Assembly: GCA_964001155.1 (NCBI GenBank)
Contig: CAXFCD010000180.1
Location: 1-39,096 of the forward strand
DNA: 39,096 nt
Direction: 5' to 3'
From: an uncultured bacterium
Lineage (GTDB): Bacteria; Fidelibacterota; Marinisomatia; Marinisomatales; UBA1611
Of this stretch, positions 12,100 through 37,700 are shown piece by piece. The position numbers and the translations under genes were made by a program. How positions within the stretch are numbered: the first letter of the stretch is position 1; each line of letters opens with the position of its first letter. The notes under the pieces were generated by a model. The model saw only the letters and a list, made by a program, of their open reading frames with translations. It was not told the DNA's origin and searched no databases.

Positions 12100-12250
12100 A
12101 AAAGGGGTTTATGGTTTAAAAAAGTAGGGACGAAAATTAAAGTGGAAATAGCCTCTAACCTATGTGTTGTTATTCAATTTATTACTCATTTTTAAAAAAT
12201 CTTATCTTTAAAATTAGTCTGGGATTAAAAACAAATAATTAAAGAATATA

Positions 12251-17182: not shown

Positions 17183-17212
17183 CTTATTTAGAAAATTAAT
17201 AATGATTCTTTA

Positions 17213-17803: not shown

Positions 17804-17815
17804 AGAAAGCCTATT

Positions 17816-18586: not shown

Positions 18587-19193
18587 TGTCTGAATATACA
18601 CTATTTAATGTTCCAGGAGTACCGTTACCTTCAGAAGCAGACCAATTCTTGGAAATTGAATTATCTAAAAAGGGATTAATTAACTCAAGCGTTGCACCAT
18701 TGCCATCAGCTTGTATAGGCCAAGGTAAAGTATCGTCATATTCTACCATATCTACTAATAGGCCGTTGGAATCAAACAATCTTACTATATCACCACCTTT
18801 TCCTAGACCAAAGCCCAGATTTCCGTAATACGATTCTATATCGGGAAATAAAGCTGCGAATTTTAAAGTATCTGAGCAAAACACCAGATATTGACCTGGT
18901 AGTATTTCTGTGTGAGGTGCTATGATAAAAATATGTTCATCATTCTCATCTTTTAATACCCAAGAATCCATATTAACGGTATTATTACTATTGTTATAAA
19001 TTTCAATCCAATCATCGGAATCATAACTATCTGAAGAATGATAATTGATTTCGTTTATCACCAAACCAAAATCTGTGGTATCATTTATATCTGTATTTTC
19101 ATCTTCGCAACTATAAGAAATGAATCCAATAATCATGATGGTATTAGTAACTACCAGTTTATATTTTGATGTATATGTTTCGAAATTCTTCAC
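18579..19193 (-). CDS. Lamin-tail-domain (LTD) lipoprotein
   Basis: GTG start at 19191-19193. The signal peptide has a lipobox-like GFISYSC. LTD pattern: LVINEINYHS...DDWIEIYNNSNNTVNMDSWVLKD..., PGQYLVFC, GKGGDIVRLFDSNGLLVDMVEYDD, DGNGATLELINP. Confidence 0.7.
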   Translation of the reverse strand: MKNFETYTSKYKLVVTNTIMIIGFISYSCEDENTDINDTTDFGLVINEINYHSSDSYDSDDWIEIYNNSNNTVNMDSWVLKDENDEHIFIIAPHTEILPGQYLVFCSDTLKFAALFPDIESYYGNLGFGLGKGGDIVRLFDSNGLLVDMVEYDDTLPWPIQADGNGATLELINPFLDNSISKNWSASEGNGTPGTLNSVYSDND

Positions 19194-19226
19194 TTTATTG
19201 GTTATAATTTTTTATAAATACAGGGT

Positions 19227-23946: not shown

Positions 23947-23986
23947 TATATTATCCTTTATATTATTTGTAAACTGATTATCATAT

Positions 23987-25789
23987 TCATTTCACAAATA
24001 ATATTTTCTTTGTTATTACATTATTATTATGCAAAAGCCTAGTGATGTATAAACCACTGGATAATCCCCTGAAAGACCATTCAACCTTATGTTTGCCAGT
24101 TAAACTATACTTTTTATCAATTTGTGATATAATCTGACCATTTAAGTTATGTATAGTTATTTCTGTCATACCCGGCTCATTAACAAAATAATTAAAGGTT
24201 GTTATTTGATTAAAAGGGTTGGGATAATTTTGTAGAAACTGGACCTGATTACTGTGTGGCTGGGCATCAGTAAATGTTCCCAGATCAAATGTTGAATCTT
24301 GTTCTACAACCATACTGTTTATAAATGGCCCCGCATATTCATAACCACTGCCATAATCGACAGCAGAAAAATACAAATCTAAAATTCCATCCATGACAGT
24401 TATCCCATTTAATGTCGTGTCAAATGCATTAAACTGTCCAGCAAGATTAATAATATCTATGGCAGAAACCCACATTGAATCCTCTGCAAAAATATCAAAA
24501 GTACGTTGGTCCGGTTCAGAATAATGATTTTCTGAAAATTTAAATGTAACTGAATATTTTCCATTTGGGACCCTAACTTTATACGATACAACACGATTCA
24601 GAGAAGATATATATAAAGTATCCTGATCAGTATTACCTATACTCAGATCTGTAATCTGGTAGTTCCCATTCATGTGGCCATATTCTGTCGATGATGACCA
24701 CAATTGATCGGCATAAAAATCATCAAAAGCAGTACCTGCATTGTTAACCCTTAACGGAAAGCTCAGGGGCTCAGGCATATCAATAGATAGCCACTGACCC
24801 AACTGTGTATTGGGCGGCTGTGAATCATCATTAATACCTAATATCGTAAGGTTGTAAAAATTTTGCAAATCCATTCCATTGACCGTCAGTCTAACTGTTC
24901 GCTTATCCGGTTTAAGCATTGCCGAATGAACCGATGCTCCGCTAATGATAAAATTATTTGTATTCTGTGATGAAACAGAATCTAATTCTTCACTAAAACG
25001 TGCAATTACTGAATCACCTCTAGCTCTTGCCCATAATAAATATGGAATTGTTTCATCTTGATATCCAATATTTTCATCATCTGTTAAGCAAAGAATTAAT
25101 TTACCATCATTAAAAACTACATTTTCTTCAATAAAAATTGATTGGTTAGACGCCCAGGTATGGTTATCGCTTTTTTCCCATCTTGTTGAATCATAATAAT
25201 TGAAATCATCCTGCCATTCAAAAGTGAAATTATTATCTGTACCAGTATTTCCACTTCCAGGTGTATAAGAAGCGTATTTGACCCAATCGTAATAAGCAAA
25301 TCTCGGCAGAATCCTATCATCCCAAAACCCTACCCAGTCATCCCAGATTGGATTCCAAATATTCATCATTATTTTTGCAGATTGATCCAAATAGGATACC
25401 TGTTCTTCGGTTTGTCTATAAACTTCCGCCCCATTAATAAAAAAGGCTATGTAATCTGGCGTCCATTCAAAACCAACAATTAAATAGTCTAAATGAGTAT
25501 TTAAAGTAGTGAAATGGGTCCTCAACCGACTACTGACTGTTATGATGTTTAAATCCACAACATTTTCAAATCGTCCTAGTAATTCGACGTCAATTTCAAA
25601 CCATGGCGTGTTGGGATAATCATCATTATATACAAAAAAAGATGAAACCAACCCCTCCCCTTGTGCAGGTTTATACCTGGCTTCGAATTTTCCATATTGC
25701 ACCGGCTCCAGTGTTCGTAATTCGGCGCCACGTTCAGACCCGTAAGAAAATGAAAAAATAACAATTATGATTTGAATGAATCGACTCAA
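23987..25789 (-). CDS. GH16 beta-glucanase of the circularly permuted lichenase type + Ig-like + malectin-like module + T9SS CTD
   Basis: TTG start at 25787-25789. GAELRTLEPVQYGKFEARYKPAQGEGLVSSFFVY, WFEIDVELLG, FEWTPDYIAFFINGAEV and WQDDFNYYDSTRWEK...ENVVFNDGKLILCLT closely resemble the Fibrobacter succinogenes 1,3-1,4-beta-glucanase as I remember it. The malectin-like stretch is YKVRVPNGKYSVTFKFSENHY...RTFDIFAED...VMDGILDLYF. The CTD is YPNPFNQITT...SGLYITRL...KKILFVK. Confidence 0.85.
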   Translation of the reverse strand: MSRFIQIIIVIFSFSYGSERGAELRTLEPVQYGKFEARYKPAQGEGLVSSFFVYNDDYPNTPWFEIDVELLGRFENVVDLNIITVSSRLRTHFTTLNTHLDYLIVGFEWTPDYIAFFINGAEVYRQTEEQVSYLDQSAKIMMNIWNPIWDDWVGFWDDRILPRFAYYDWVKYASYTPGSGNTGTDNNFTFEWQDDFNYYDSTRWEKSDNHTWASNQSIFIEENVVFNDGKLILCLTDDENIGYQDETIPYLLWARARGDSVIARFSEELDSVSSQNTNNFIISGASVHSAMLKPDKRTVRLTVNGMDLQNFYNLTILGINDDSQPPNTQLGQWLSIDMPEPLSFPLRVNNAGTAFDDFYADQLWSSSTEYGHMNGNYQITDLSIGNTDQDTLYISSLNRVVSYKVRVPNGKYSVTFKFSENHYSEPDQRTFDIFAEDSMWVSAIDIINLAGQFNAFDTTLNGITVMDGILDLYFSAVDYGSGYEYAGPFINSMVVEQDSTFDLGTFTDAQPHSNQVQFLQNYPNPFNQITTFNYFVNEPGMTEITIHNLNGQIISQIDKKYSLTGKHKVEWSFRGLSSGLYITRLLHNNNVITKKILFVK

Positions 25790-27271
25790 TTAGGGATCCA
25801 TTTTTGTACCATAGTTTAAATAACTATCGGTTGTTATCACTGGGAAAGAAGGTACCACTATTGGGTAAGGAACTCCCCGCTGAGTAACAATCATGTCCGT
25901 TGATGTTAATTCAATTGACTCAAATGCATCCATATTAATTTCTATTTGATCCGAGTATATACCCTGCAGAGAATCAATAACCGGGTTCATGAATTCAAGC
26001 CATTTATCTTGGGTTTTCAAATCCTTATTTTCGGACTTTATTTTTGCCATGTACTCTCTGCTTAACATTGCATCTTTCCACATACTTACATTGGATTCAA
26101 CGATCCAGTTTTTATTGTAGCCGGATTGGTAACATTGATTGGTTATTTCTTCATCGCGAAACAAATCAGCAATTGCAAGCCGGAGTTGTTCTGGAAATTC
26201 ACTCCTATTCAATTTCCTCTTTCGAAAAACAAGAGGGTGCGATCTCAGTTTATCATTGAAATCCTTCACAGTCCACCCATTTCCATTGTATTGTAATAGA
26301 ATTGAATTGGGGTCTATTTCAAAATCATTGCTATCAATGGTAAATGTAGGTTGGTCTAATAATTCCGGCTCATTCCAAATTGCTTTATTCAAGGCACTCT
26401 TTTTTACAGAGTCTAATTTGAAGAAATGTTTTGAAGCCCTATCTGCATATTGATAGAAGATATCAGGATTAAACGATATCTCTTTACCCGACATCAATTC
26501 TTTCACCCATTTAAAATAGGATGATTTCGCTTTTTGTTCAGTAAGCCGTTCAGTCACATCATTCCACCTTTGTGCCTGACTTGCTTCAGAAATTTGAATC
26601 TCATCCTTCCAACCATTAATGACCATGACCAAATAAGAACTGTCTTCTGTTGCAATCGGGCCTATGAATTGTCCTTTCTTGATATCAGGGTCAAATAATG
26701 ATTTATGGAAAATGTCCTGCTCTCTTTCAAACCATGAAATTTCTCGTTTTGGCGCAGATCCTCCCCACAGGTTATCATGAATTGAATCCAGAGGAACATT
26801 CTGTATAACTAATTCTTTAATCTTGTCAACAAGTTCTAAATCTGGAAGATTAAGATACTGCACGAACACAGTCCGGCCAGCGAGTTTGTAAGCAGATTTT
26901 AATTCATGATCTTTAAGCTCTGTCCTATCATAAAATTCTTTCGCATAATGTACCTGCCTCATGGCCTGTTCCTTACGGCCGGTTAATGCTGAATTTAATT
27001 GGTCATCTAAACTTCCTGCATTTTGCGATTCGTACTCTATAGCAATTAACTTTTCACTAATCAGTGAATTGAGAATTATTTTTTTATGAATATAATTGGA
27101 TTGTCTGCAATAATCAGGACGGATAGTATATTCCGCTCTTCTGATAAAATCCTGTATAGTAATGCTACTGGAACCGACTTCAGCTAATATTTGGAGTTCA
27201 GGAATATCAGACTGAGTAGTACAACCCATAGAAAAAAATATGAGCAATAATGACAGTCGAAAGACTTTCAC
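25790..27271 (-). CDS. SurA/PpiC-like periplasmic chaperone lipoprotein (peptidyl-prolyl isomerase family, possibly degenerate)
   Basis: GTG start at 27269-27271. Lipobox FFSMGC. SurA-N-like start ILAEVGSSSITIQDFIRRAEY, a long helical body, and the rotamase-like remnant GQFIGPIATEDSSYLVMVING. The functional call is tentative. Confidence 0.45.
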   Translation of the reverse strand: MKVFRLSLLLIFFSMGCTTQSDIPELQILAEVGSSSITIQDFIRRAEYTIRPDYCRQSNYIHKKIILNSLISEKLIAIEYESQNAGSLDDQLNSALTGRKEQAMRQVHYAKEFYDRTELKDHELKSAYKLAGRTVFVQYLNLPDLELVDKIKELVIQNVPLDSIHDNLWGGSAPKREISWFEREQDIFHKSLFDPDIKKGQFIGPIATEDSSYLVMVINGWKDEIQISEASQAQRWNDVTERLTEQKAKSSYFKWVKELMSGKEISFNPDIFYQYADRASKHFFKLDSVKKSALNKAIWNEPELLDQPTFTIDSNDFEIDPNSILLQYNGNGWTVKDFNDKLRSHPLVFRKRKLNRSEFPEQLRLAIADLFRDEEITNQCYQSGYNKNWIVESNVSMWKDAMLSREYMAKIKSENKDLKTQDKWLEFMNPVIDSLQGIYSDQIEINMDAFESIELTSTDMIVTQRGVPYPIVVPSFPVITTDSYLNYGTKMDP

Positions 27272-27283
27272 AAATAGCTTTTA

Positions 27284-28354
27284 TTAAAATGTAGTTGTAA
27301 TTGTATAAATCTCAACATCTCCAAGTAGGCCCATTGTTTTGTAAGCATAATCTATGGAAATAGATTTATTACCTAAATAAAATAATTTTATTCCTAAACC
27401 AGTAGTAATCCCAACATCAGTCCCATCGGGCAATAATTTATTCATTCCGCTTTTAAGACCACCTTTTAAACTAAATATTCCTATTCCGGGGATTTTATTT
27501 TCTAAGGAAACCCCCAAGTTTACTGTTTCATTATTGTTGTTTGGATGGAGAGCATCAGCTGCTAATGTTAATGTAAAATAATTACTTATAATTGGTTGGA
27601 TTGAAAAACCAATCCGAAAAATTAATGGTAATTCCCACTCAGATGTTCGAAACTGTCCAGCAACATCTCCATAATTTCCGTCTTCAAACTCAGAAATATC
27701 AATTGGCTGATAATTATCAATACCATCAAACTTCATTCTAGTACCGTAATTAGAGATACTCATTCCGATGTTCATTCCGTTCTCTTTTTTACCCGTAAAG
27801 GAAAAAAAATCAGTATTGACAATAACGCCTAAATCCACTGCAAATGCATTAGCAGAGCTATGCCAAATATTAGATCTAATATATTTAAATGAAGAACCAA
27901 AAGAGAACCATGATACAATTTTTCTAGAAAAAGAGAATGTTGCAGCCAGATCATTTGCCATAAATTTCTCGCCCGTGCCATCTTGGTATTCCAAAGTTGT
28001 TACTTCCATTTCGCCATAGTCCACCTGTGTAATCCCAAGCCCAAAAACACCAACTCCAGGCATCACAAGTGCCCCACCGGTAAAAAGTAAATCTACATCA
28101 ACTACCCACGGTTGTACCATGAAAAGCGCTGAATTTCTATTTAAGTTAGATAGTCCTGCAGGATTCCAGTATATGGAGGAAACATCATTCACAACTGCTA
28201 CCTGAGCTTCACCCATTGCATTTGCACTGCTTCCAATACCAATTTCCAGAAAATTAGCTGCCGTGGTACCATAACGGTAGATAGTCTGTGCCGACATTTC
28301 CTGAAAATTATTCGTCATTAATATCAAGATTACTATTTTGATGAATCTTATCAT
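27284..28354 (-). CDS. PorV-like / FadL-like outer-membrane beta-barrel (T9SS shuttle protein family)
   Basis: The ATG at 28352-28354 overlaps the upstream TGA as ATGA. Signal peptide ...EMSAQ. The PorV-type N-terminal signature is GTTAANFLEIGIGSSANAMGEAQVAVVNDVSSIYWNPAGLS. Alternating beta strands run to the terminal ...IYTITTTF. Confidence 0.55.
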   Translation of the reverse strand: MIRFIKIVILILMTNNFQEMSAQTIYRYGTTAANFLEIGIGSSANAMGEAQVAVVNDVSSIYWNPAGLSNLNRNSALFMVQPWVVDVDLLFTGGALVMPGVGVFGLGITQVDYGEMEVTTLEYQDGTGEKFMANDLAATFSFSRKIVSWFSFGSSFKYIRSNIWHSSANAFAVDLGVIVNTDFFSFTGKKENGMNIGMSISNYGTRMKFDGIDNYQPIDISEFEDGNYGDVAGQFRTSEWELPLIFRIGFSIQPIISNYFTLTLAADALHPNNNNETVNLGVSLENKIPGIGIFSLKGGLKSGMNKLLPDGTDVGITTGLGIKLFYLGNKSISIDYAYKTMGLLGDVEIYTITTTF

Positions 28355-31300
28355 TTTATAATAGCAAATTTTCCTAATTTTTCATCACCCGTTTCCTGTG
28401 CTTCAATATGGTATAAATACATTCCAGCAGCAATTTCAAGGTTTTCTCTTGTAAGCATATCCCAGTGAATGATTCCACTTTCCGGTTGGTTATTAACAAT
28501 AATCTCATCAACCAAGACACCGCTCACCGTAAATATTTTTATTGTACAGTTAGCCGGGATATGGGTGAACATTAAACGTCTGCGCTGGTTTAAAAATTGA
28601 TTTGAAACAGCTGTTTCCATCATATTGGTCATCACATAGGGATTCGGAACCACTTTAATTTTTTTCATGTCATTTGCTATGGCAGATCTATCCAAATTAT
28701 CATTTGCACCAACAGAAAATCTTATGGTGTCTGTTTCATAAAATGGTCGTTTCCAATCAACTTGGTAAACATCCCCAGATTTAGGAAGATTACTTGAATC
28801 TGATGCAAGCTGAAAATCAATGACGAATGCTGTAATCTGCCAATTATACTCGCTATCAGTGGTATCCCAAGTGCTGGCACCCACAAAAAAACGATCTTCA
28901 AATATATTAACTGTATCATTATCATTCACATCATGAACCACAACATCCATTAATTCGTATTCTCCAGTGGATGTATCTATGAAAGATGTGTTCTGGACAT
29001 AAAAACTAACAGCTTGGTTCGTTAATATGTCTCTTTCAGTTTCATTATTTTCATCCCGAACTCTGCGTGGATCAGCCATGCCTATAAAAGCAGAATCATT
29101 ATCCGTAAATACTATATTATATTTCCAAGGTACCAGTGCACCTTTTACAGAATTGGGTGTAACTCTGAGGTTACCATTTCCATTGATCCAGCCTGATGTT
29201 TGATAATTATATTCACACGATTCTACACCAGCATCAATTTCTACCTGCATTCCATCAAAAATATCCGTGAAAATCGTACCGCCTGCATTCAAAGTCCAGT
29301 AATCCACCGTATCCTTGTAGATTAGATTTGTTCCGACGTACTTTGTACTGTCTTCTTTATAAACGAGGATGGTGCTGTCGGTATCATCATAGATAAAGAT
29401 CTCATTGGTCACGTACTGAAATCCATGGTCATAATTGCTTACGCTTTCAATAGTATCTACGCCAAACGTCATGAAATAACTATGGTTAGCTTCTAAGCTT
29501 CCACGAGCTCTTATTATAGGCGTGACTGAACCACTGCCTAGTAAATTGCCTTCTTCAACAACTAATTCAGGAGGAATATATCCAGCGGCTGGTTGATGAG
29601 GGGTTACAATGGCAATGTTTTTCCCTATTGACCTAATCTCTTCTGCTTCATCCAGTTCTATAACAGTATTGTTTTCACTCGGAGAAATTCCAGGTCCTAT
29701 ATTTGGTGCTCCAAAATCATACGCAACAACTGCATAGTAATAAGTCCGACCATTTTGTACTGTATTATCAACAAAAATGTGTGAAATACCATTGTTTGTT
29801 CCGAGATTATAACCTGCTCCATTGACCAGCCCGAAATCTGTAAATCCACTACATTGATGAATCATCCCATTTATTTGGTTTGGGTTATGAGGGCTTTGAT
29901 CTGGTAAATCACATTGATAAATAGGTTTTTTAAACATAGGTGTACCATAACCATCAGTAATTATCTCAGGATCAGATAAATATTTATCTGTAGAGCGGTA
30001 AACCTTATAACCTTCAAAATCATTAATATTACCCACGAACGGATCTCGAGTCCGTGTGTCAGCAACATCGTCCCAGGTTAAAATAACTTCACCATCTCCA
30101 GCTGTTGCAGTAACTGTTGGCATTTTTGGAGGTTGTGCAAACCTGTAGTCTTTTTCATAGATCACCTGTACGATTCGTTTTAATTCAAAAAGAGCTGGTG
30201 CACTATGTGTTTCATCATTTAGACCAGCCAGAGGATCATACGAATGAAGTTCAGACATGGAAATTCTTTCCACACGCCCTTGGAATAATGGGAAAGGACC
30301 AGAAGCAAATACTTCAACTAGATTTGAAATGTTACTGGTGTATTCTTCCAAGGAATCAATACCAATAACATTCCACATAGCTTCATCATTCTTAAACCAA
30401 GTTGTTGTATTAGATGGTGCATGGCTCGGTATAGGAAACATTCTAAATGATGTTAAACCCACCATATCAGATTCAGACACATCTGTTGTATTAAAATTAG
30501 GTTCACACCCGACACCTTCTTCAAAGTCTGGCCGGTGATTGCACTCAGTTCCATCTAAATCGGGCCCGAAATAGTTTAATTCTCCAGGTGCCACACCATC
30601 AATACCAATATCATCACCTGCGTATTCAGAAAGTTGATAGACACCGTCTCCGTTTAAATCTTCACCATCTTCCCAGTCTTGATCTTCATCTGCATCCCAA
30701 TGTTCCCTTAATTCATCAGCGGTTTTCTTATAGAATTCAAGGAAAGCATTTAAATCTGTGATACCATCAGTTGGACCAATAATTCCCGTGGGCTCATTAT
30801 CTCTTTTTTCATCTGTCAACCCATCATTGTCATTATCAATATAGTCATATGCAAGTCCAGGGCTTTCCAAATATGCAAATCCCATTACGCCAGACGGCAA
30901 ACCGCCAGCACCTATACCATTTATGTCCCAGGAATAGGCCATGTCTTCCTGTTTATTAAAAAATCCTAGATCATCATCTCCATCTCCACCAATGGAATTG
31001 TCCAGCCAATATCCAAAAGCAACGTCTCTTAAGTCATACTCTGAAACATTTGCAATGGAATATTCCCAGAAGATTGCATCCCTGGCCTGTGGATTATTCC
31101 ATTGAAACCCTCTGACTGAAACCCGTAAACCAAGTCCACCCCACGGTACACCAGGCTGGATCGTTACATCAGGCTTTAAATCTCCAACAAAATGACCAGG
31201 GCGTGGATAATATCTCACATTATCCTCTGGTCCTAAATTTTCCTGATCTTGAGCATCGTTCACCACATAATAGGATTCTTGATCTGCATAAATCACACCT

Positions 31301-31872
31301 CGACCAAATCGGCCATTCCATTCCCCTGGCCATTTTGTTTCAAATCCTGTCGAGGGCCAGCCAGCAATTGGCCATGAACTCTCTATATTTGATATAGCAG
31401 GATATTCTCCAGTCTCATTAAAATATCCAAATACAGGATAAAATCCCCATTCAACTGTACCCAAAGGATTCAAATCCATTTCTTCTCTATAACTTGTTTG
31501 GAGATAATAAAGCTTATGATGGTCTTTTGTGTAAATATCAGATAATTCTGTCAGAGGCAATGTATCTAATGTAGCCGGGTTACCATCGTCTTCTATGTAT
31601 ACTTTTGCACCCACCAGTAAGCCTATTCCATCGGTCATTTTTAAACCGTTTGGGTTGTTTGGCCATTTAGATACATTTACTCTGGGCCAGTCGGATAGTT
31701 CAGTTGTATTTCGGAAATAAATATAGACTCGATTTCCCGTCATATATCCTTCTCGTTCTGCAGCAACATCGCCAGCTGGGTCTTCAGGGCCACCATATTC
31801 TTTCCCTTGACCAAATAATGAACCGATTAAAAACAATAAAACTATAGGCTTATAATACTGCATCACTTTCAA
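28351..31872 (-). CDS. 1173-aa secreted protein of unknown function: Asp-rich Ca-binding-type loops, an Fn3 module and a variant T9SS/FlgD-Ig-like C-terminal domain
   Basis: The track start is a TTG at 31870-31872, overlapping the TBDT TGA. An alternative ATG at 31861-31863 gives MQYYKPIVLLFLIGSLFGQG. Visible elements are DYIDNDNDGLTDEKRDN, DADEDQDWEDGEDLNGDGV, the Fn3-like GEVILTWDDV...FEGYKVYRS, and a C-terminus VVPNPY...CTIKIFTVSGVLV...GMYLYHIEA...GKFAIIK. The ORF is long, uninterrupted and operon-embedded, so it is certainly coding; only its function is unknown. Confidence 0.6.
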   Translation of the reverse strand: MKVMQYYKPIVLLFLIGSLFGQGKEYGGPEDPAGDVAAEREGYMTGNRVYIYFRNTTELSDWPRVNVSKWPNNPNGLKMTDGIGLLVGAKVYIEDDGNPATLDTLPLTELSDIYTKDHHKLYYLQTSYREEMDLNPLGTVEWGFYPVFGYFNETGEYPAISNIESSWPIAGWPSTGFETKWPGEWNGRFGRGVIYADQESYYVVNDAQDQENLGPEDNVRYYPRPGHFVGDLKPDVTIQPGVPWGGLGLRVSVRGFQWNNPQARDAIFWEYSIANVSEYDLRDVAFGYWLDNSIGGDGDDDLGFFNKQEDMAYSWDINGIGAGGLPSGVMGFAYLESPGLAYDYIDNDNDGLTDEKRDNEPTGIIGPTDGITDLNAFLEFYKKTADELREHWDADEDQDWEDGEDLNGDGVYQLSEYAGDDIGIDGVAPGELNYFGPDLDGTECNHRPDFEEGVGCEPNFNTTDVSESDMVGLTSFRMFPIPSHAPSNTTTWFKNDEAMWNVIGIDSLEEYTSNISNLVEVFASGPFPLFQGRVERISMSELHSYDPLAGLNDETHSAPALFELKRIVQVIYEKDYRFAQPPKMPTVTATAGDGEVILTWDDVADTRTRDPFVGNINDFEGYKVYRSTDKYLSDPEIITDGYGTPMFKKPIYQCDLPDQSPHNPNQINGMIHQCSGFTDFGLVNGAGYNLGTNNGISHIFVDNTVQNGRTYYYAVVAYDFGAPNIGPGISPSENNTVIELDEAEEIRSIGKNIAIVTPHQPAAGYIPPELVVEEGNLLGSGSVTPIIRARGSLEANHSYFMTFGVDTIESVSNYDHGFQYVTNEIFIYDDTDSTILVYKEDSTKYVGTNLIYKDTVDYWTLNAGGTIFTDIFDGMQVEIDAGVESCEYNYQTSGWINGNGNLRVTPNSVKGALVPWKYNIVFTDNDSAFIGMADPRRVRDENNETERDILTNQAVSFYVQNTSFIDTSTGEYELMDVVVHDVNDNDTVNIFEDRFFVGASTWDTTDSEYNWQITAFVIDFQLASDSSNLPKSGDVYQVDWKRPFYETDTIRFSVGANDNLDRSAIANDMKKIKVVPNPYVMTNMMETAVSNQFLNQRRRLMFTHIPANCTIKIFTVSGVLVDEIIVNNQPESGIIHWDMLTRENLEIAAGMYLYHIEAQETGDEKLGKFAIIK

Positions 31873-34622
31873 AAATTGATACCTACTGCAAGTTTGATAT
31901 TTCTTGGCGCAGAAAACATGGAAGGGTTTTTTATCCTATCTTCATAAGTGTTATAGGTACTGCGATGACCAGCTAGATCTGTTTCTTGAATAACGGCAGT
32001 ATACGCGCGGCCGGTTTCGCTATTCACCCAATTTTCATTTAACCGATCAAAAAGATTATAAATAGTAAGGTCTATTTTTGCACTATAGTTGCTAAATAAT
32101 TTGAAATTGTAGTAAAGAGTTGCATCTGTAGTATAGGTTGCCGGTTTATAATCATTATTCGGATATAAATTGATCCTGGAAAGAACACTTTCAGACTGCG
32201 GAGTAAAAGTGTACGGAGAACCAGAATTGAAATATGCAGTTATGGTTCCACCAATCTTTTCTCCAAAATACATTAGCGATCCATTCAGAGTATGCCGCTG
32301 ATCCCAACTCATAGGTATAAAACGATTAACCGGATCCATGTTATTTCCAGCTCGAGTGAAACTCTGGGTAGGGTTATCTGCGTTTCCTCTTGTATACTGC
32401 AGTGTGTAATTCACCATCCCCTTTAGGGCTCCATATCCCATATCAAGCTTGACTTCCAATCCACGGGCATTCCCGTAATCTTTATTACTATATAATCCAT
32501 ATTCAATTTGATTATAAGTAGAAATAATTTTGGTACTAAGTAGATTGTAAATATCTCTGTAATACAATGCCACATCAATACCTAATCCTCGAGTAATTTC
32601 CTGCCAAAGTCCAATTTCATATGTAATTGTCTTTTCAGGTTTTAGGAGTGTATTGCCCATCGTGGTGCTATAATCGCTAGGCCCGACCAAAAAACTGCGG
32701 TTCTGATACATAGAGTATAAAGGGGGCATCTGGAAGAAATGTCCATAACTAAAGTGTAATACTGCTTGCGTACCAAGCTGATAAGCAAATCCAATCCTGG
32801 GGCTAGTCTGGTCGATTATAGGCGCATCTGGATATGTTGATGTCATGGAATCTGGAAGGTTTAATTGGTTCGCAGGATTACGTCTGTCAGATGGGTATGG
32901 GCTATTTGGATTAAAATAATCATATCTTAACCCGAGATTAATCACCATTTCATCAAATTCCATTTTATCCTGAATATAAAATGCAAATTCTTTTGGATTA
33001 ACCTTATAAATATCGGCATAAACTGTTGTATCGCCATAAACTACAGGTTTGTATAAATCACCTTCATTTGATTCCCCTTCATATTTATTTCTAATAGAGC
33101 GCCACTTTTGACTAACTCCGTGAGAAATGCCCATGAATCCCAGCTTAAAACTGTGATTATGGTTTGCTTGCCACGTTAAATCAAATTTTGCAGTGGAATC
33201 TATCATCCTAAGCATGCTATGATTTTTCTGCTGACCACCTGTAAAAAAACCAGAACCATAATTTTCGAGATATTTATCATGTATATATGAATATACAGTA
33301 TCACCCGGTAAATGCTCGTTCCCATCGGGGTAGATACCTGCAGTATCAGCTATGATATAATCAGTTGGATTTTTAAATAAATAATTTCCTGAAAAATTGT
33401 CTAAAAGAGAAATTTTGAGCTCATAAAATAGTTCCGGAGAAATCATATGATTTAGCTGGAAGGAACTATAAGTTGTCTCTTTGTGGGATGGGGCCCTACC
33501 ATCAGGGTTATATTTAAATGCATGATCATAACCAAACCAGGTATCATTTGTTTCAGACTGTAATAGAGAAACCCGGATTCCATCAAATAAATTGAAACTT
33601 AACTTAAATAAGGCTGAAAAGTTTTCACCCGTATTCATTGGTACATACGAACTATCCCCTGATTGTGAATATACCCAAGTTGTTGAATCATCTGAATAAA
33701 AATCACTCGTATCTGTAACCGTAAACATTCTGATCCCATTCAGGTGCCCCTTGTTATCCTGCACACGTATATTGGTAAAAAAAGTAATTTTTTCTCCAAG
33801 TAATGGACCACCTAAACTGAATTTTAAATCCTGGCTTCGATTAAGCTCCGGCTGAAGTGCATCATTTGATAATCCAATAAAAATATCTTCACCATCTTCA
33901 TGTTTATTATTGGTATTAAAAAAGGAAAAAGCACCAGATACAGATCCTTCAAATTTTGGCCCGCCATCTCGAGTAACAACATTTACAACCCCGCTCATCG
34001 CTCTGCCATATTCGGCATTAAAGGTTCCGGTTATTACTTCTAAATCCTGTACCGCTTCCGGTTGTATTTCCATTGCAGCACTACTCCCTCCAAAAGTTTC
34101 ATCTACCTGAACCCCGTCAATCATGTAGGTAACTTCCGTATTCCTTCCTCCACGGAAATGACCATTAACCACTCCCGCCTGCATATTGATCACTGAGCCT
34201 ACACTTTCCACTGGTAGTGCATTAATCTCATCGCCTGATATATTTTTTATGGTCCCGGTCTGGTCTTTTTTCTGAGACAACCGTGCTACTTCAACAGTAA
34301 TCACTTCCCCTTCAATTACCGTTTGTGTCATTTCAACCTCAATGGAGGATGTCCTGTTTACTGAAACAACCACTTCATCAACCCGCACAGAAATATAGCC
34401 TATCATATCTACCTTTAGGTCATATTTACCCGGTGGAATATTGATCATTGTAAATCTGCCCATCTCGTCCGCTGCTGTACCATAAGGTGTATTAATAAGA
34501 TATACATTTGCACCAATCAAGGGACTTGAACTGGATTGTTCTTTAACAACACCAGAAATTTTCCCCGTTGTTTGAGACAAGGGAAAGGAAATAATTAACG
34601 AATATATAAGCTTTTTAATCAT
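31869..34622 (-). CDS. TonB-dependent outer-membrane transporter with an N-terminal carboxypeptidase-regulatory-like domain
   Basis: 917 aa. The CarbopepD_reg-like domain is GKISGVVKE...PLIGANVYLINTPYGTAADEMGRFTMINIPPGKYDLKVDMIGY. The plug region is ISGDEINALPVESVGSVINMQAGVV...FRGGRNTEVTYMIDGVQV. A long beta barrel ends in ...KLAVGINF with a terminal Phe. Confidence 0.9.
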   Translation of the reverse strand: MIKKLIYSLIISFPLSQTTGKISGVVKEQSSSSPLIGANVYLINTPYGTAADEMGRFTMINIPPGKYDLKVDMIGYISVRVDEVVVSVNRTSSIEVEMTQTVIEGEVITVEVARLSQKKDQTGTIKNISGDEINALPVESVGSVINMQAGVVNGHFRGGRNTEVTYMIDGVQVDETFGGSSAAMEIQPEAVQDLEVITGTFNAEYGRAMSGVVNVVTRDGGPKFEGSVSGAFSFFNTNNKHEDGEDIFIGLSNDALQPELNRSQDLKFSLGGPLLGEKITFFTNIRVQDNKGHLNGIRMFTVTDTSDFYSDDSTTWVYSQSGDSSYVPMNTGENFSALFKLSFNLFDGIRVSLLQSETNDTWFGYDHAFKYNPDGRAPSHKETTYSSFQLNHMISPELFYELKISLLDNFSGNYLFKNPTDYIIADTAGIYPDGNEHLPGDTVYSYIHDKYLENYGSGFFTGGQQKNHSMLRMIDSTAKFDLTWQANHNHSFKLGFMGISHGVSQKWRSIRNKYEGESNEGDLYKPVVYGDTTVYADIYKVNPKEFAFYIQDKMEFDEMVINLGLRYDYFNPNSPYPSDRRNPANQLNLPDSMTSTYPDAPIIDQTSPRIGFAYQLGTQAVLHFSYGHFFQMPPLYSMYQNRSFLVGPSDYSTTMGNTLLKPEKTITYEIGLWQEITRGLGIDVALYYRDIYNLLSTKIISTYNQIEYGLYSNKDYGNARGLEVKLDMGYGALKGMVNYTLQYTRGNADNPTQSFTRAGNNMDPVNRFIPMSWDQRHTLNGSLMYFGEKIGGTITAYFNSGSPYTFTPQSESVLSRINLYPNNDYKPATYTTDATLYYNFKLFSNYSAKIDLTIYNLFDRLNENWVNSETGRAYTAVIQETDLAGHRSTYNTYEDRIKNPSMFSAPRNIKLAVGINF

Positions 34623-34673
34623 TTGGATTAAATAACATATTTTTTTATTGTAAATATTTTACTAAAAGATAAT

Positions 34674-34710
34674 TAAAAAAAGAGGGGCAATTAATTGCCC
34701 CTCTTTTTTG
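34674..34710 (-). terminator. Rho-independent terminator downstream of the 1146-aa gene (symmetrical, flanked by an A-run and a T-run)
   Basis: AGAGGGGCAAT (34681-34691) pairs perfectly with ATTGCCCCTCT (34694-34704). An A7 run lies on one side and T6 on the other, so the minus-strand transcript ends in hairpin + U-run 12 nt after the stop at 34723. Confidence 0.75.
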
Positions 34711-34722
34711 ACTTGTTATTAG

Positions 34723-37700
34723 TTATTTCACTAATAGCATTTTTTGGGTAATGGCACTACTCCCCGATATCAATTTATAAAAATATACTCCGGATGCCAT
34801 GTTCCCAGCATTCCATTTTGCAGTATGAAGACCTGCTTGTAATTCACGATCTATTAATGTCACAACTTCCTGTCCCACAATATTATACAGTTTAAGGGTA
34901 ACCTGCTGTGTTTCAGGAATTGAAAACTTAATCGTAGTCGCCGGATTGAATGGATTCGGATAATTCGGATATAGTGCAAACTCATATGCCACCATACCAT
35001 CTTCATGATCGATCGAAACCATCGATTGATCACCAATCCACGTTGTGGACCATACGCTGGGAGTTTGCCATGCGTTATCAGCATTTGTTGGAGAAGCAAC
35101 AAGATTTCCTTCCCAGCCATTCCCATCATTATCATGGAATGTAGGCTCTATGGGTATTCTCATACCGTTTAAAGCATTGAGTCTGATATCATCTCCAAAA
35201 GCAATATCATCTAAAGATAATCTTGCTTCTAATATGTAGTCAGGATCTAAACCTTCATGGAAATAATTACCATCTCCATTGACTGCTAATGTATCTTGGC
35301 TATTAAAATCATTTACTGCATGTGTTTCCAAGAAATAGAATTTATAATCAGGTTCGTCTCCACGTTCCATACCACCATGTTTTGCACCACGTTGATCATA
35401 AAAACCAATAAATAACTCAAATACATCATTCTCCCACCAACCATTGGTTCCATCTCCAGCTTGATATCCATCATAGACATCGTCAATTACATCTGCAGCA
35501 ATGTATAAATAGTCTTCATCAACTGCGAGCCAAATTTCACCTGATAGGTCATCATCACTATCTACATCTCCTACAATGCTTGGTGTACCCCAGGAATTAT
35601 CTTCGGTACCAAGAAAGAAAGGCTCAATGTCACTATCATACCATTCATCTAAATCTCCATCTGCAGCAAAATCAGCCGGCACTGAGAGTGATATTGTTGG
35701 AATTCCTTTGGCCATGTTACTAATTGAACCTTCGGATGAACCTGGTTCACCCACATTGTTTGACGCATCTTCACAAATAACTGCATAATGGTAAGAAACA
35801 TTTACATCTTCAAGTGGATTAAACAAATAATGTACTGCGGCCTGACTGCCTTCAAGTACACCGGTTGCTACCACATCTGCAGCCGCCAATGATAACGAAT
35901 CCGTTATCGGTTCCATGCTTGCGTAGACATTATAGGATTCACCACTTTCACCATCCACATCTGACCATGTGACTAGATTATAGTATGATGCAGGGGTAGC
36001 AGAAACATTTTCTACTGCTGCAGGAGGGACAACATCAAGAACTCCAACATTCATGAGAAACATGTCATCAAAGGCAAAATCACAGGGCACACCATCCCAG
36101 CGGGATGCTACAATTACTGCAGTCATTTGTACAGTGCCTTGAGGCATGACAAATTCAACAGTGTGATTTTCCCATTCATCTGTCATTGTTAAAGCAACAT
36201 CACCAGTCGATTCTAAAACATTGCCTGCGGCATCTTTTGCTTCAAGCTTAAAAAAGGCTCCAGCTTCTTCGCCATTTACACTTTTTCCAAATCCACTAAA
36301 ACTCCAAGTCTCACCATACGCAGCAGGGATACTGTCTTCAGTGTAATATACTGCCCAGTTATCTGTAACACCGATACTGAGATAATTATCGCCTGAGTAC
36401 GCCATAGATGCATCTGTAATCACTTCTGCATGTCCGCCGCCCATTGCAACGCCCCATCCAAAATCATCATCATTTTCATCTGCCAATTCAAAGCCTGGGT
36501 TGGTCAACACATTCTTTGAACCTGTCAATTTGAAATCATCTAGAACAATTGTGCCATTAGCATAGTCACCATCTCCACCACCACTGATTGAAAATTCTAA
36601 GTGAAAACCTGCAATAGCATCTTTATCCAATTCACCATTACCAGCTTCTCCCGCCCAACCAGTTAGATTAAATCCACCACCGTCCCAAGAATCATTTCTT
36701 TCAAGAGGCATTGTAATGGTATTCCAACCTGGTTCATTGTCTAAAATATAATGGAATGAATAGTAATATTCTCCAAGTCCAGTATAGTTATCGGGATCAG
36801 ATACATCACCAAAGTCACTAAGATTTAACCTTAAATGGACTCTATCTTGCAAGGATTGTGAAACTGAATTGTAGTAAGAAAATGAAATACTGTCATATCC
36901 TGACCAGTCCCATAGTTCACCATGGTTTCTGTTTTCAATGATTGACATCCAGTCCTCACTCCAATCGTCTCTTATAACCGCTGAACGATATTCTGTTACA
37001 GTCACGTCCGTTAATGTAACTGGAGCATCTGGAGTTGTTACGTACAGCAGGAATGAGCTAAAGGTATTTTCACCCTGTGCTGGAATCTCTACTGAGTAAG
37101 ATGATGTTTCTCCAGTATTTTCTTCATTAACGGTTACGGACTCTGTGTTAAAACTTGGCTCAGTGTCTGGGTATGGGTTATACTCAAACCTGAAATACAA
37201 TTCCACATCTGTCGTATAATTTGCACCTGTAAAAGTGATTAAACCACCGTTCGGGAAGGTAAATGGATAAAGACTCGTATCTTCGTTGGCAAAGCCTCCC
37301 CATGATTCAGCCCCTGTTGGAAATGTATAAGTATTCCCATCAACTATTGTACCACCAAATGCACCCGAGAATACGATTCCTGTATCCGTATCATCTCCAC
37401 CATAATCACTTACAAGTTTAAAAGTCCAGAATACGCCTGCACCTGATTCGATAACAAGCGTCATGGTTTGATTGTCATTTGATAATGTTACTTCATATGT
37501 AATTGATTCTGGAACGGCCACATCGGGTAATTGCCCTTCATTATTTGCTTTAGGAAGACCTAAATAAGCACCAACTCCACTAAGTGTCACCTGACCTGTG
37601 CCTGCATTAAACTCCCATGTAGCTGGATTTGAACCATCATGCGGCGCTACAGGTGCCCCACACTGATCTGCTTCTACACCCTGCCAAACTTCAAGCCAAG

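What the first reader, a model, noticed from the sequence alone, without database searches (positions are those of the whole stretch)
27284..34622. TonB-dependent transporter chained to a 1173-aa unknown protein and a dedicated PorV/FadL-like barrel: a candidate new outer-membrane glycan-capture complex
Where Bacteroidetes place SusD immediately after SusC, this locus has a different arrangement. A 1173-aa secreted protein is predicted to be beta-rich, with Asp-rich Ca-loop repeats (DNDNDGLTDEKRDN, DADEDQDWEDGEDLNGDGV) and an Fn3 module. Its start overlaps or nearly abuts the TBDT stop (TTG at 31870-31872 against TGA at 31869-31871, or ATG at 31861-31863). Its stop overlaps the start of a PorV-like barrel as ATGA (28351-28354). 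In characterised T9SS, PorV shuttles or anchors CTD-bearing cargo, and type-B cargo genes are followed by cognate PorP/SprF-like barrel genes. By analogy, this PorV-like protein could be the private outer-membrane anchor that holds the 1173-aa protein next to the TBDT as a lid or glycan-delivery subunit. I cannot assign the body of the 1173-aa protein to any characterised family. The tight coupling of all three genes suggests fixed stoichiometry.
Basis: inference. Interest (0 to 1): 0.8.

Follow-up and report, generated by a model that had tools for sequence, protein, structure and literature searches.

The report
SusD-less glycan-uptake core using T9SS
In a marine Marinimicrobia genome, a TonB-dependent transporter, an unannotated 1,170-aa surface protein with a type IX secretion tail and its own PorV-like barrel form a gene trio found at sugar-degradation loci across several phyla lacking SusD here; it may be an undescribed way to build a glycan-uptake complex.

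Summary
All genes lie on the minus strand: TBDT (31869-34622), a 1170/1173-aa protein I call BIG (28351-31863/31872) and a PorV/PorQ-family barrel (27284-28354), with overlapping junctions.

The trio is not a chance adjacency. In 80 related loci from genome assemblies labelled Neomarinimicrobiota, Calditrichota, KSB1, Ignavibacteriota and Rhodothermales:
- the TBDT lies directly upstream in 62/65 loci;
- the barrel lies directly downstream in 65/72;
- this holds down to about 31% BIG identity.

Several assemblies hold more than one BIG locus. The three proteins diverge in step (r = 0.90-0.97).

The trio sits beside different enzyme sets (GH16/GH5 here; GH125, GH92, GH18/GH85, alpha-amylase and GH130 elsewhere), so it looks like a substrate-independent core.

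BIG has no Pfam or NCBIfam family and no whole-fold match in the PDB. Its C-terminus is a divergent T9SS type-A sorting domain. The closest solved relatives are the retained CTDs of PorU and PorZ, which bind PorV and PorQ.

Most likely BIG is secreted by the T9SS, handled or held by its cognate barrel, and works with the TBDT. The physical complex and any lid or glycan-binding role are untested. I found no published description.

The parts
31869..34622 (-). TonB-dependent transporter, 917 aa: N-terminal carboxypeptidase-regulatory-like domain, plug, and 22-strand-type barrel. It is not in the SusC/RagA family.
   Evidence: Pfam CarbopepD_reg_2, Plug, TonB_dep_Rec_b-barrel and OMP_b-brl_4. No TIGR04056 SusC/RagA hit even at E<=10. 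A homologous TBDT lies directly upstream of BIG in 62/65 related loci.
28351..31872 (-). BIG: a secreted 1170-aa protein (ATG 31863) or 1173-aa protein (TTG 31872) of an unannotated family. Layout: signal peptide, beta-rich core, Ca-loop-like Asp-rich insert, Fn3, variable beta-sandwiches, T9SS-type CTD.
   Evidence: No Pfam or NCBIfam hit. 3391 cluster representatives at E<=1e-3 and 386 at E<=1e-30. AF2 pLDDT 86.4, pTM 0.78. No whole-fold PDB match.
30454..30858 (-). BIG residues 336-470: Asp-rich DxDxDG-type loops, putative Ca2+ sites, among the best conserved parts of the family.
   Evidence: Invariant D343, D345, D347, E352, D418, G420, D422, G423, D461, E464 and D466. Almost no regular secondary structure, yet block pLDDT of 83-92. 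Mean pairwise column identity 0.45. Ca binding is inferred. No Pfam family, TSP_3 included, was reported.
29674..30123 (-). BIG residues 581-730: Fn3-like beta-sandwich with a disordered insert (about 657-668).
   Evidence: AF2 strands. Weak profile hit to the Fn3-like protein 3mpc. Foldseek hits to FnIII arrays. Column identity 0.48.
28699..29673 (-). BIG residues 731-1055: beta-sandwich region, the most variable part of the family and a candidate specificity region (inference).
   Evidence: Column identity 0.20-0.24, against 0.42-0.48 in the core, Fn3 and CTD. All-beta in the model.
28354..28668 (-). BIG residues 1066-1170: divergent T9SS type-A-like C-terminal sorting domain ending in GKFAIIK.
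   Evidence: Scanned alone it hits the PorZ C-terminus (E 1.5e-6), the PorU C-terminus (2.3e-5) and TIGR04183 (20.5 bits vs cut-off 23). The family profile's best PDB sequence hits are the PorU and PorZ CTDs. hhalign against local type-A CTDs gives probability 96.2%, E 2.5e-9. A GKF[AGS][VI]IK-type end is present in essentially all 79 full-length homologues.
27284..28354 (-). Dedicated PorV/PorQ-family outer-membrane barrel, 356 aa. Its start overlaps the BIG stop (ATGA).
   Evidence: NF033709 at 189 bits (cut-off 90), covering model positions 1-326 of 326. PorV equivalog 86 vs 250, PorQ 78 vs 220. No PorP/SprF hit. PDB PorV 6h3i at E 7.9e-8. Directly downstream of BIG in 65/72 loci.
25790..27271 (-). 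493-aa lipoprotein with a SurA/PrsA/PEB4-like chaperone fold. It starts 12 nt after the barrel stop and is a frequent fourth member of the module.
   Evidence: Weak SurA_N_2 hit. AF2 pLDDT 75.8. Foldseek top hits are SurA in BAM-SurA (9hg7_F), LIC12922, PrsA and PEB4. A Cys at residues 11-32, consistent with a lipobox, in 34/41 homologues. Present downstream of the barrel in 35 of the loci analysed, within about 270 nt in 28.
34676..34709 (.). Strong terminator-like hairpin (15 pairs) that separates the upstream CBM9 gene from the TBDT operon.
   Evidence: and the sequence read. The other terminator-like sites in the region are weak and within chance expectation.
34723..38163 (-). 1146-aa T9SS type-A cargo with CBM9 and CBM4_9. 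It is a likely surface glycan-binding protein and often lies just upstream of the TBDT in relatives.
   Evidence: Pfam CBM9_1, CBM_4_9 and Por_Secre_tail. TIGR04183 at 46.9 bits. Homologues lie upstream of the TBDT in many loci.
19227..25789 (-). Downstream enzymes of the same gene string. There are three GH16 proteins (23987-25789, 22393-23946, 21188-22396) and one GH5 with CBM6/35 (19227-21218). The first two GH16 and the GH5 carry T9SS CTDs. The set suggests a beta-glucan (laminarin-type) substrate.
   Evidence: Pfam hits. Same gene order in relatives L001, L002 and others.

Best explanation
The region is the core of a SusD-less polysaccharide-utilisation locus of a Marinimicrobia (SAR406) bacterium. 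One gene string encodes, in order:
- a TonB-dependent transporter;
- BIG, a 1170-aa secreted protein of an unannotated but very large family;
- a dedicated PorV/PorQ-family barrel;
- a SurA/PrsA-like lipoprotein chaperone;
- GH16 and GH5 enzymes, most of them T9SS-secreted.

Shown here:
- The TBDT-BIG-barrel trio is a conserved unit in assemblies labelled as several non-Bacteroidia FCB phyla.
- It occurs more than once in some assemblies.
- Its three proteins diverge in step.
- It sits next to different CAZyme sets.
- BIG ends in a divergent type-A T9SS sorting domain most like the retained CTDs of PorU and PorZ.

Inferred mechanism:
1. BIG is exported by Sec and crosses the outer membrane through the T9SS.
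2. Its CTD is taken over by the cognate barrel encoded next to it, rather than by the housekeeping PorV.
3. BIG stays bound to that barrel, as PorU stays on PorV and PorZ on PorQ, so it is displayed on the surface next to the co-expressed TBDT.
4. There it helps capture oligosaccharides released by the secreted glycanases and pass them to the transporter. This role is filled in Bacteroidia by the lipid-anchored SusD and SGBP proteins.

The conserved N-terminal core, Ca-loop region and Fn3 would be the scaffold or docking part. The variable beta-sandwiches (residues 731-1055) would be the substrate-specific part. The SurA-like lipoprotein would assist periplasmic folding or assembly of these large outer-membrane components.
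For: Gene structure and junctions.

Organism: homologues are named Candidatus Marinimicrobia or Neomarinimicrobiota.

Synteny over 80 loci from species-representative genome assemblies:
- TBDT adjacent upstream in 62/65, barrel adjacent downstream in 65/72, both in 54/61.
- This holds down to 31-33% BIG identity, in assemblies labelled Ignavibacteriota, Calditrichota, KSB1 and Rhodothermales.

Duplication as a unit:
- Two complete tandem trios in L083, with BIG 56% and barrels 74% identical.
- Two trios in MAG DAOQAG01 that have diverged in all three proteins (38/34/42% identity).

Co-divergence: distance-matrix correlations are 0.90-0.97, and nearest-neighbour concordance is 58-75% against 2% expected at random.

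Substrate independence, from the neighbouring genes:
- GH16/GH5 here.
- GH125.
- GH16/GH2/GH3/GH92.
- GH18/GH85/NamZ.
- CBM20 and alpha-amylase.
- ABC sugar transporter and GH130 in the cultured Rosettibacter firmus.

BIG's CTD.

The barrel is a full-length PorV/PorQ-family member but neither the PorV nor the PorQ equivalog.

Precedent from the literature:
- PorU and PorZ keep their CTDs, which stay bound to PorV and PorQ. Cognate PorV-like barrels have been proposed to protect CTDs (PMC10202324).
- Type-B substrates depend on a shuttle barrel encoded by the gene directly downstream, and the CTD-shuttle pair targets the substrate to its final location (PMC12618676).

T9SS use by this organism: six proteins in the window carry Por_Secre_tail domains.

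The SurA/PrsA fold of the fourth gene.
Against: - There is no direct evidence that BIG touches the TBDT or the barrel. Everything rests on gene order, co-divergence and analogy.
- Co-divergence is confounded by species phylogeny. Only one within-genome pair of complete trios could be scored.
- BIG has no recognisable carbohydrate-binding module. The CBM9/CBM4_9 cargo upstream is a better candidate glycan binder.
- The CTD scores just under the TIGR04183 cut-off (20.5 vs 23).
- CTD conservation does not set BIG apart from ordinary cargo.
- Variants exist. L019 has three BIG genes with one barrel, L077 has the order BIG-BIG-TBDT-barrel, and some loci have 1.4-2.8 kb inserted between BIG and the barrel. 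One-to-one stoichiometry is therefore not universal.
- The 80 loci are the best-scoring of at least 514, so more distant members may have other contexts.
- MAG taxon labels are uneven.
Confidence: 0.55

Rival explanations
1. Secretion helper only. The barrel is a specialised T9SS shuttle needed to extract BIG from the translocon, as SprF is for SprB. BIG is then released or attached elsewhere, for example as an adhesin or a matrix or particle-binding protein. Its link to the TBDT would be co-regulation within a nutrient-acquisition operon, not a physical complex.
For: Cognate shuttles encoded directly downstream of their substrates are required for secretion, and substrates of that class are mostly adhesins (PMC12618676). 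BIG is a multi-domain Ig/Fn3-rich beta protein with Ca-loop motifs, a typical adhesin make-up. L019 has three BIG genes sharing one barrel.
Against: The TBDT is as tightly linked to BIG as the barrel is (62/65 loci). It shows the highest distance correlation with BIG (r = 0.967). The trio recurs with different CAZyme sets as if it were one unit.
Confidence: 0.22
2. BIG is a new surface enzyme, such as an unrecognised glycoside hydrolase, lyase or esterase, that pre-processes the substrate for the TBDT.
For: Foldseek gives probability-1.0 but low-TM matches to GH116 beta-glucosidases (TM 0.16-0.25). There are many invariant Asp and Glu residues.
Against: The same family accompanies loci for chemically different glycans: beta-glucan, mannan, starch and GlcNAc-type. 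The model has almost no helices, so it cannot contain the GH116 (alpha/alpha)6 catalytic domain. The invariant acidic residues lie in DxDxDG loop motifs typical of Ca sites. There is no enzyme family hit by HMM or PDB profile.
Confidence: 0.08
3. The TBDT acts outward or in assembly. It would be an Oar-like transporter that helps export or install BIG or other cargo, rather than importing glycans.
For: The TBDT shares the CarboxypepD_reg N-terminus and a PF25183 barrel match. By recollection these are shared with Oar-type TBDTs; this was not checked here. A TBDT (Oar) has been reported as required for secretion of a protease in Myxococcus (PMC6434023, title and abstract seen).
Against: BIG carries its own T9SS signal. 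The loci hold inner-membrane sugar importers and periplasmic or cytoplasmic glycosidases, consistent with import.
Confidence: 0.04
4. The barrel is a FadL-type substrate channel unrelated to BIG, or the adjacency is fortuitous.
For: A weak Toluene_X (FadL) match, E 0.0011 and below the cut-off.
Against: A full-length match to the PorV/PorQ family, well above its cut-off. Adjacency is conserved in 65/72 loci, with co-divergence. BIG carries a CTD of the kind these barrels bind.
Confidence: 0.03

Closest known systems
SusC/SusD (and RagAB, BtuB-BtuG) transporter-plus-surface-partner pairs of Bacteroidia
   Same: A TonB-dependent transporter with an N-terminal carboxypeptidase-regulatory-like domain is encoded directly next to a large extracytoplasmic partner protein. 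The pair is the invariant core of loci whose enzymes vary with the substrate.
   Different: The TBDT is not in the SusC/RagA family. The partner is not a SusD-like helical lipoprotein. It is a roughly 1100-aa all-beta protein with a Sec signal, no lipobox in 75 of 79 homologues, and a T9SS CTD. A third gene, a PorV-family barrel, is part of the unit. Whether a complex forms is untested.
PorU-PorV and PorZ-PorQ pairs of the T9SS attachment complex (Porphyromonas gingivalis)
   Same: A CTD-bearing protein is paired with a PorV/PorQ-family barrel. BIG's CTD is most similar, among solved structures and NCBIfam models, to the CTDs of PorZ and PorU. Those CTDs are retained and bind PorQ and PorV (PMC10202324).
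   Different: BIG's body shows no match to the PorU sortase or to PorZ outside the CTD and Ig-like parts. The barrel fails both the PorV and the PorQ equivalog cut-offs. The pair can occur more than once per assembly and is tied to a TBDT and to CAZyme loci, not to the secretion machinery.
Type-B CTD substrates with cognate PorP/SprF shuttles (SprB-SprF, Fjoh_3952-Fjoh_3951) of Flavobacterium johnsoniae
   Same: The shuttle or anchor barrel is encoded immediately downstream of its substrate. There are several specialised pairs per genome. The CTD-barrel pair is thought to direct the substrate to its final location (PMC12618676).
   Different: Here the barrel is of the PorV/PorQ family, with no PorP/SprF hit. 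The CTD is type-A-like: hhalign gives 96% to type-A CTDs, and CHU_C hits only 2 of 39 members. That paper states that type-A CTDs are all handled by PorV. A TBDT is part of the unit.
SurA / PrsA / PEB4 periplasmic chaperones (for the fourth gene, 25790-27271)
   Same: The predicted fold matches SurA in the BAM-SurA complex, PrsA foldases, PEB4 and LIC12922. There is a weak SurA_N_2 sequence match. A distant locus has a true Rotamase-domain protein in the equivalent neighbourhood.
   Different: It is a lipoprotein, encoded inside a nutrient-uptake operon. No parvulin Pfam hit was found in the window protein. TM-scores are low (0.2-0.5) because of domain arrangement.

Membership tests
PorV/PorQ family outer-membrane barrels (NCBIfam NF033709) | Whole-protein score above the curated cut-off, with full-length coverage of the model | tested here: met
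   189.1 bits against a cut-off of 90; model positions 1-326 of 326.
PorV proper (NF033710 equivalog) or PorQ proper (NF033711 equivalog) | Score above the equivalog cut-off | tested here: not met
   PorV 86.1 vs 250, N-terminal 220 positions only. PorQ 78.1 vs 220. PorV2 59.1 vs 325.
PorP/SprF type-B shuttles | Match to PorP/SprF models | tested here: not met
   No PorP/SprF family was listed for the barrel in Pfam at E<=0.01 or in NCBIfam at E<=10.
PorV/PorQ family (functional definition) | 14-strand FadL-like barrel that binds a T9SS CTD through its loops | not testable with these tools
The only support is sequence similarity to the solved PorV 6h3i (E 7.9e-8).
T9SS type-A CTD cargo (TIGR04183 / PF18962) | C-terminal Ig-like sorting domain that matches the family model | tested here: inconclusive
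   Within the whole protein there is no hit. The last 104 aa alone give TIGR04183 20.5 bits vs cut-off 23, PorZ C-terminus E 1.5e-6 and PorU C-terminus E 2.3e-5. hhalign of the family CTD profile against local type-A CTDs gives probability 96.2%, E 2.5e-9. The best PDB profile hits are the PorU and PorZ CTDs. Homology is well supported, but the curated cut-off is not reached.
T9SS type-A CTD cargo | N-terminal Sec signal peptide, and a T9SS present in the organism | tested here: inconclusive
   A hydrophobic N-terminal helix at residues 5-17, without a lipobox. Six other proteins in the window carry Por_Secre_tail. The core T9SS genes are not in the window, so they could not be checked.
SusC/SusD polysaccharide-utilisation core | TBDT belongs to the SusC/RagA family (TIGR04056) | tested here: not met
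   No TIGR04056 hit at E<=10. The domain order CarboxypepD_reg-Plug-barrel is shared.
SusC/SusD polysaccharide-utilisation core | SusD-like (SusD_RagB) lipoprotein encoded next to the TBDT | tested here: not met
   No SusD family was found in any of the nine ORFs from 19227 to 38163. The only lipoprotein has a SurA/PrsA fold.
SusC/SusD polysaccharide-utilisation core | Co-localisation with substrate-specific CAZymes, the core being constant while the enzymes vary | tested here: met
   GH16 x3 and GH5 here. GH125, GH92/GH2/GH3, GH18/GH85, alpha-amylase and GH130 beside homologous trios.
Calcium-binding thrombospondin type-3-like repeats (BIG residues 336-470) | Match to a curated Ca-repeat model (such as Pfam TSP_3), or demonstrated Ca sites | tested here: not met
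   No Pfam family, TSP_3 included, was reported for BIG at E<=10 or for the 39 homologues at E<=0.01. Only DxDxDG-type motifs with invariant Asp/Gly and a confident loop-only model. Ca binding is an inference.
SurA/PrsA chaperones (fourth gene) | SurA-like N/C chaperone module plus parvulin-like domain | tested here: inconclusive
   Foldseek probability 1.0 to SurA, PrsA, PEB4 and LIC12922, with TM only 0.15-0.5. SurA_N_2 at 20.1 bits, below the cut-off of 28.5, and no Rotamase Pfam hit.

The most novel reading that the evidence does not exclude
TBDT, BIG and the PorV-family barrel form a stable three-protein outer-membrane machine. It would be the counterpart of SusCD in Marinimicrobia, Calditrichota, Ignavibacteriota and KSB1. 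The surface-exposed partner of the transporter is delivered by the T9SS and held by a dedicated barrel through its uncleaved CTD, instead of by a lipid anchor. This would be a direct functional coupling of type IX secretion to TonB-dependent glycan import. It would also be a new class of type-A-like CTD with its own PorV-family shuttle or anchor.
Probability: 0.35. Interest if true: 0.85.

Novelty: new variant of a known kind. Interest (0 to 1): 0.7.

Why it matters
Marinimicrobia (SAR406), Calditrichota and Ignavibacteriota are abundant, mostly uncultured degraders of marine and sediment organic matter. How they take up glycans without SusD is not explained in any of the literature I could search.

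A conserved, unannotated protein family always sits between a TBDT and a private PorV-like barrel. It has at least 386 clusters at 50% identity with strong matches, and thousands with weaker ones. This gives three things:
- A marker for finding polysaccharide-utilisation loci outside Bacteroidia.
- A concrete, testable hypothesis for a second way of building a surface glycan-capture complex.
- A possible new use of the T9SS shuttle principle, namely targeting a substrate to a transporter.

Cultured carriers exist (Rosettibacter firmus and Melioribacteraceae strain 4301-Me), so the idea can be tested directly.

Tried and rejected
Searches for a known family for BIG, all negative apart from its CTD and Fn3 parts:
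- Pfam and NCBIfam on the whole protein, down to E<=10 in Pfam.
- Pfam on 39 diverse homologues: only CHU_C in 2 and FlgD_ig in 2.
- phmmer and a family profile against PDB sequences: only the PorU and PorZ CTDs and an Fn3-like protein, all marginal.

Whole-chain Foldseek of the AF2 model against the PDB gave only low-TM matches (<=0.25): PorZ, PorU, FnIII arrays, complement-type Ig arrays and GH116. I do not read these as a fold assignment. Domain-wise fold search was not possible with the tools.

SusD analogue. I tested whether the 493-aa lipoprotein could be a hidden SusD analogue. This is rejected, because its fold is SurA/PrsA-like.

CTD conservation. I tested whether BIG's CTD is unusually conserved relative to its body, compared with ordinary cargo. 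The result does not discriminate: BIG 0.53 vs 0.45, but the CBM9 cargo also 0.46 vs 0.37.

Structure job. 

Literature. Ten full-text searches found no description of this trio or of the BIG family. The genome papers for Melioribacter roseus and Caldithrix abyssi do not mention it.

Not possible: counting PorV paralogues in the source genome, because only this 39-kb window is available.

Full report
**1. What is in the sequence**

Between 19.2 and 38.2 kb every long ORF lies on the minus strand.

| Coordinates | Product | Evidence |
|---|---|---|
| 34723-38163 | 1146-aa protein with CBM9, CBM4_9 and a T9SS type-A sorting domain | |
| 34676-34709 | 15-bp-stem terminator-like hairpin | |
| 31869-34622 | 917-aa TonB-dependent transporter (CarboxypepD_reg-like N-terminus, plug, barrel) | |
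| 28351-31872 | 1173-aa ORF, here called BIG | |
| 27284-28354 | 356-aa PorV/PorQ-family barrel | |
| 25790-27271 | 493-aa lipoprotein | |
| 23987-25789, 22393-23946, 21188-22396 | three GH16 proteins | |
| 19227-21218 | GH5 with CBM6/35 | |

The TBDT stop overlaps a TTG, and an ATG follows nine bases later. The BIG stop and the barrel start form ATGA.
- Public gene calls use the ATG and give 1170 aa. Protein positions below use that numbering.
- The lipoprotein gene starts 12 nt after the barrel stop.
- No ORF of the string matches a SusD family.
- Named homologues of BIG come from Candidatus Marinimicrobia/Neomarinimicrobiota (SAR406).

**2. The barrel**

- It covers the whole NCBIfam 'PorV/PorQ family protein' model, 189 bits against a cut-off of 90.
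- It is far below the equivalog cut-offs for PorV (86 vs 250), PorQ (78 vs 220) and PorV2.
- It has no PorP/SprF hit.
- Its only convincing solved relative by sequence is PorV (6h3i, E 7.9e-8).
- It is therefore a distinct member of the PorV/PorQ family, not the housekeeping PorV.

**3. BIG**

Family size and annotation:
- BIG has no Pfam or NCBIfam family and no solved relative by sequence.
- The family is very large. There are 1661 hits among the 90%-identity clusters scored. There are 3391 representatives of 50%-identity clusters at E<=1e-3, and 386 at E<=1e-30.
- Every named hit listed, including those from cultured Melioribacteraceae, is called 'hypothetical protein'.

An alignment of 39 diverse members (A1) gave a confident AlphaFold2 model (pLDDT 86.4, pTM 0.78):

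| Residues | Feature |
|---|---|
| 5-17 | signal-peptide helix |
| about 30-580 | beta-rich core |
| about 336-470 | insert with almost no secondary structure but high confidence; carries invariant DxDxDG-type motifs (putative Ca sites, inferred) |
| 584-725 | Fn3-like sandwich |
| 735-1050 | further beta-sandwiches |
| 1059-1068 | short helix |
| 1097-1170 | C-terminal sandwich |

- Conservation is highest in the core and Ca-loop region (0.42-0.45), the Fn3 (0.48) and the C-terminal domain (0.48). It is lowest in residues 731-1055 (0.20-0.24).
- Foldseek of the whole chain against the PDB found nothing with a meaningful TM-score. The top E-values were PorZ and PorU, then FnIII arrays and the beta-glucosidase GH116.

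**4. BIG is a T9SS substrate with a PorU/PorZ-like tail**

- The last 104 residues, scanned alone, hit the C-termini of the PorZ model (E 1.5e-6) and the PorU model (2.3e-5). They also hit the generic type-A model TIGR04183 (20.5 bits, just under the cut-off of 23).
- The best PDB hits of the family profile are again the CTDs of PorU (6za2) and PorZ (5m11), followed by an Fn3-like protein; all three are marginal.
- A profile of the BIG C-termini aligns to a profile of ordinary type-A CTDs from this window and its relatives with 96.2% probability (E 2.5e-9).
- All 79 full-length homologues recovered end in a GKF[AGS][VI]IK-type motif.
- The organism evidently uses a T9SS, since six other proteins in the window carry Por_Secre_tail domains.
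- PorU and PorZ are the two T9SS substrates known to keep their CTDs, which stay bound to PorV and PorQ. A review has proposed that cognate PorV-like barrels protect such CTDs (PMC10202324).
- For type-B substrates, a shuttle barrel encoded directly downstream is required. The CTD-shuttle pair is thought to direct the substrate to its destination (PMC12618676).

**5. The trio is a conserved, duplicating unit**

A scan of one genome per GTDB species found at least 514 loci that encode a BIG relative. The best 80 were fetched. Their record titles name Neomarinimicrobiota, Calditrichota/Caldithrix, KSB1, Ignavibacteriota/Melioribacteraceae, Rhodothermales, Chlorobiota and some loosely labelled MAGs.

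I classified stop-to-stop ORFs with phmmer, with these results:
- The TBDT lies directly upstream of BIG in 62 of 65 loci with enough flank.
- The barrel lies directly downstream in 65 of 72. In most of the exceptions it lies 1.4-2.8 kb further on.
- Both hold in 54 of 61 loci.
- The spacers vary from a 4-nt overlap to about 100 nt or more. The codon overlaps seen here are therefore not a conserved feature.

Evidence that the unit duplicates and diverges together:
- Several assemblies hold two BIG loci on separate contigs (L017/L019, L028/L034, L063/L070, L074/L075, L029/L069), and L083 has two complete trios in tandem.
- In L083 the two BIGs are 56% identical and the two barrels 74% identical.
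- In MAG DAOQAG01 all three proteins of the two trios have diverged (38/34/42% identity).
- Across 55 complete trios the pairwise distances correlate at r = 0.90-0.97. Nearest neighbours coincide in 58-75% of cases, against 2% at random. Species phylogeny contributes to this, so it is supportive rather than decisive.

Variants exist:
- Three tandem BIG genes with one barrel in L019.
- The order BIG-BIG-TBDT-barrel in L077.

**6. The trio is independent of the substrate**

| Locus | Neighbouring genes |
|---|---|
| window | GH16 x3, GH5 (laminarin-type) |
| L083 | MFS transporter, ROK kinase, GH125 |
| L085 | CBM9 cargo, GH16, GH2, GH3, a Rotamase-domain protein, GH92 |
| L087 | GH18/GH85, NamZ |
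| L088 | CBM20 cargo, alpha-amylase |
| L090 (cultured Rosettibacter firmus) | LacI, a T9SS cargo, ABC sugar transporter, two GH130 |

This is the behaviour of a generic uptake core, as SusCD is in Bacteroidia. But the TBDT does not match the SusC/RagA model, and no SusD is present.

**7. The fourth gene**

- The 493-aa protein has a Cys at residues 11-32 in 34 of 41 homologues, consistent with a lipobox.
- It has a weak SurA_N_2 match.
- Its predicted fold (pLDDT 75.8) has as best PDB matches SurA in the BAM-SurA complex, LIC12922, PrsA foldases and PEB4.
- It follows the barrel in most Marinimicrobia and many Calditrichia loci.
- It is a chaperone-like lipoprotein, not a SusD analogue.

**8. 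Interpretation**

Shown:
- The conserved trio, its duplication and divergence as a unit, and its varied CAZyme context.
- The T9SS-type tail of BIG.
- The barrel's membership of the PorV/PorQ family, but not of the PorV or PorQ orthologue groups.

Inferred:
- After T9SS export, BIG's CTD is taken by its own barrel and stays there, as with PorU-PorV and PorZ-PorQ. This would place BIG at the surface beside the TBDT, where it takes part in capturing or handing over oligosaccharides.
- The conserved core, Ca-loops and Fn3 would be the scaffold, and residues 731-1055 the specificity region.
- The SurA-like lipoprotein would help assemble these large outer-membrane proteins.

I put about 0.55 on this overall, broken down roughly as follows:

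| Claim | Rough probability |
|---|---|
| The trio is a conserved module | 0.95 |
| BIG is a T9SS substrate | 0.8 |
| The barrel is BIG's cognate shuttle or anchor | 0.7 |
| A stable complex with the TBDT forms | 0.35-0.4 |
| BIG is a SusD-like lid in the strict sense | 0.25 or less |

The main rival is that the barrel only helps secrete BIG, which then acts as an adhesin, with the TBDT merely co-regulated. The other rivals are less likely, for the reasons given with each of them: BIG as an enzyme, an Oar-like outward-acting TBDT, and a FadL-type channel.

**9. Novelty**

- Ten full-text searches and two genome papers gave no description of the family or the trio. The library does not cover most papers in subscription journals.
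- The parts and principles are already known: TBDT plus surface partner, CTD-barrel cognate pairs, and the T9SS.
- What appears new is their combination: a type-A-like CTD with its own PorV-family barrel, tied to a TBDT as the core of SusD-less utilisation loci in several phyla.
- I therefore rate it a new variant of a known kind, of clear interest to people working on glycan uptake, the T9SS and marine carbon turnover.

Noticed in passing
window 25790-27271 (-): A 493-aa lipoprotein with a SurA/PrsA/PEB4-like predicted fold starts 12 nt after the barrel gene. It recurs downstream of the barrel in most Marinimicrobia and Calditrichia loci.
   Followed up: yes
window 34723-38163 (-) and hairpin 34676-34709: A 1146-aa CBM9/CBM4_9 protein with a T9SS type-A CTD often lies just upstream of the TBDT in relatives. 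It is a likely surface glycan binder. Here a strong 15-bp-stem terminator-like hairpin separates it from the TBDT.
   Followed up: partly
L019 (KSB1 MAG JADHVV01), 300-12260: Three tandem BIG paralogues, all with the CTD, are followed by a single PorV-family barrel. One barrel may serve several BIG proteins, which argues against strict 1:1 pairing.
   Followed up: partly
L083, 265-14297; L077, 622-10247: L083 has two trios in tandem; the TBDT of the first is cut off by the contig end (BIG 56% identical, barrels 74% identical). L077 has the variant order BIG-BIG-TBDT-barrel.
   Followed up: partly
L090 (Rosettibacter firmus GCA_036860695.1, contig JAYKGJ010000002.1, 370703-393942): A cultured Melioribacteraceae isolate carries the trio. 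Its locus reads LacI, a T9SS cargo, TBDT, BIG, PorV, a 489-aa protein, an ABC sugar transporter and two GH130 genes. This makes it a possible experimental host.
   Followed up: partly
window 14191-15255 and 15189-16208 (-): Two tandem, slightly overlapping GAPDH paralogues. They lie next to phosphofructokinase (10909-12099), class-I fructose-bisphosphate aldolase (9868-10887) and acetyl-CoA synthetase (12251-14194).
   Followed up: no
window 16001-20000: A low-GC stretch (0.28-0.32, against about 0.39 elsewhere). It holds a DUF2490 protein (16535-17182), a VTC-domain protein (17816-18601) and small unassigned ORFs.
   Followed up: no
window 1827-3875 (-): An arylsulfotransferase-like (ASST) protein with a T9SS type-A CTD. 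This is another secreted enzyme of the same organism.
   Followed up: no
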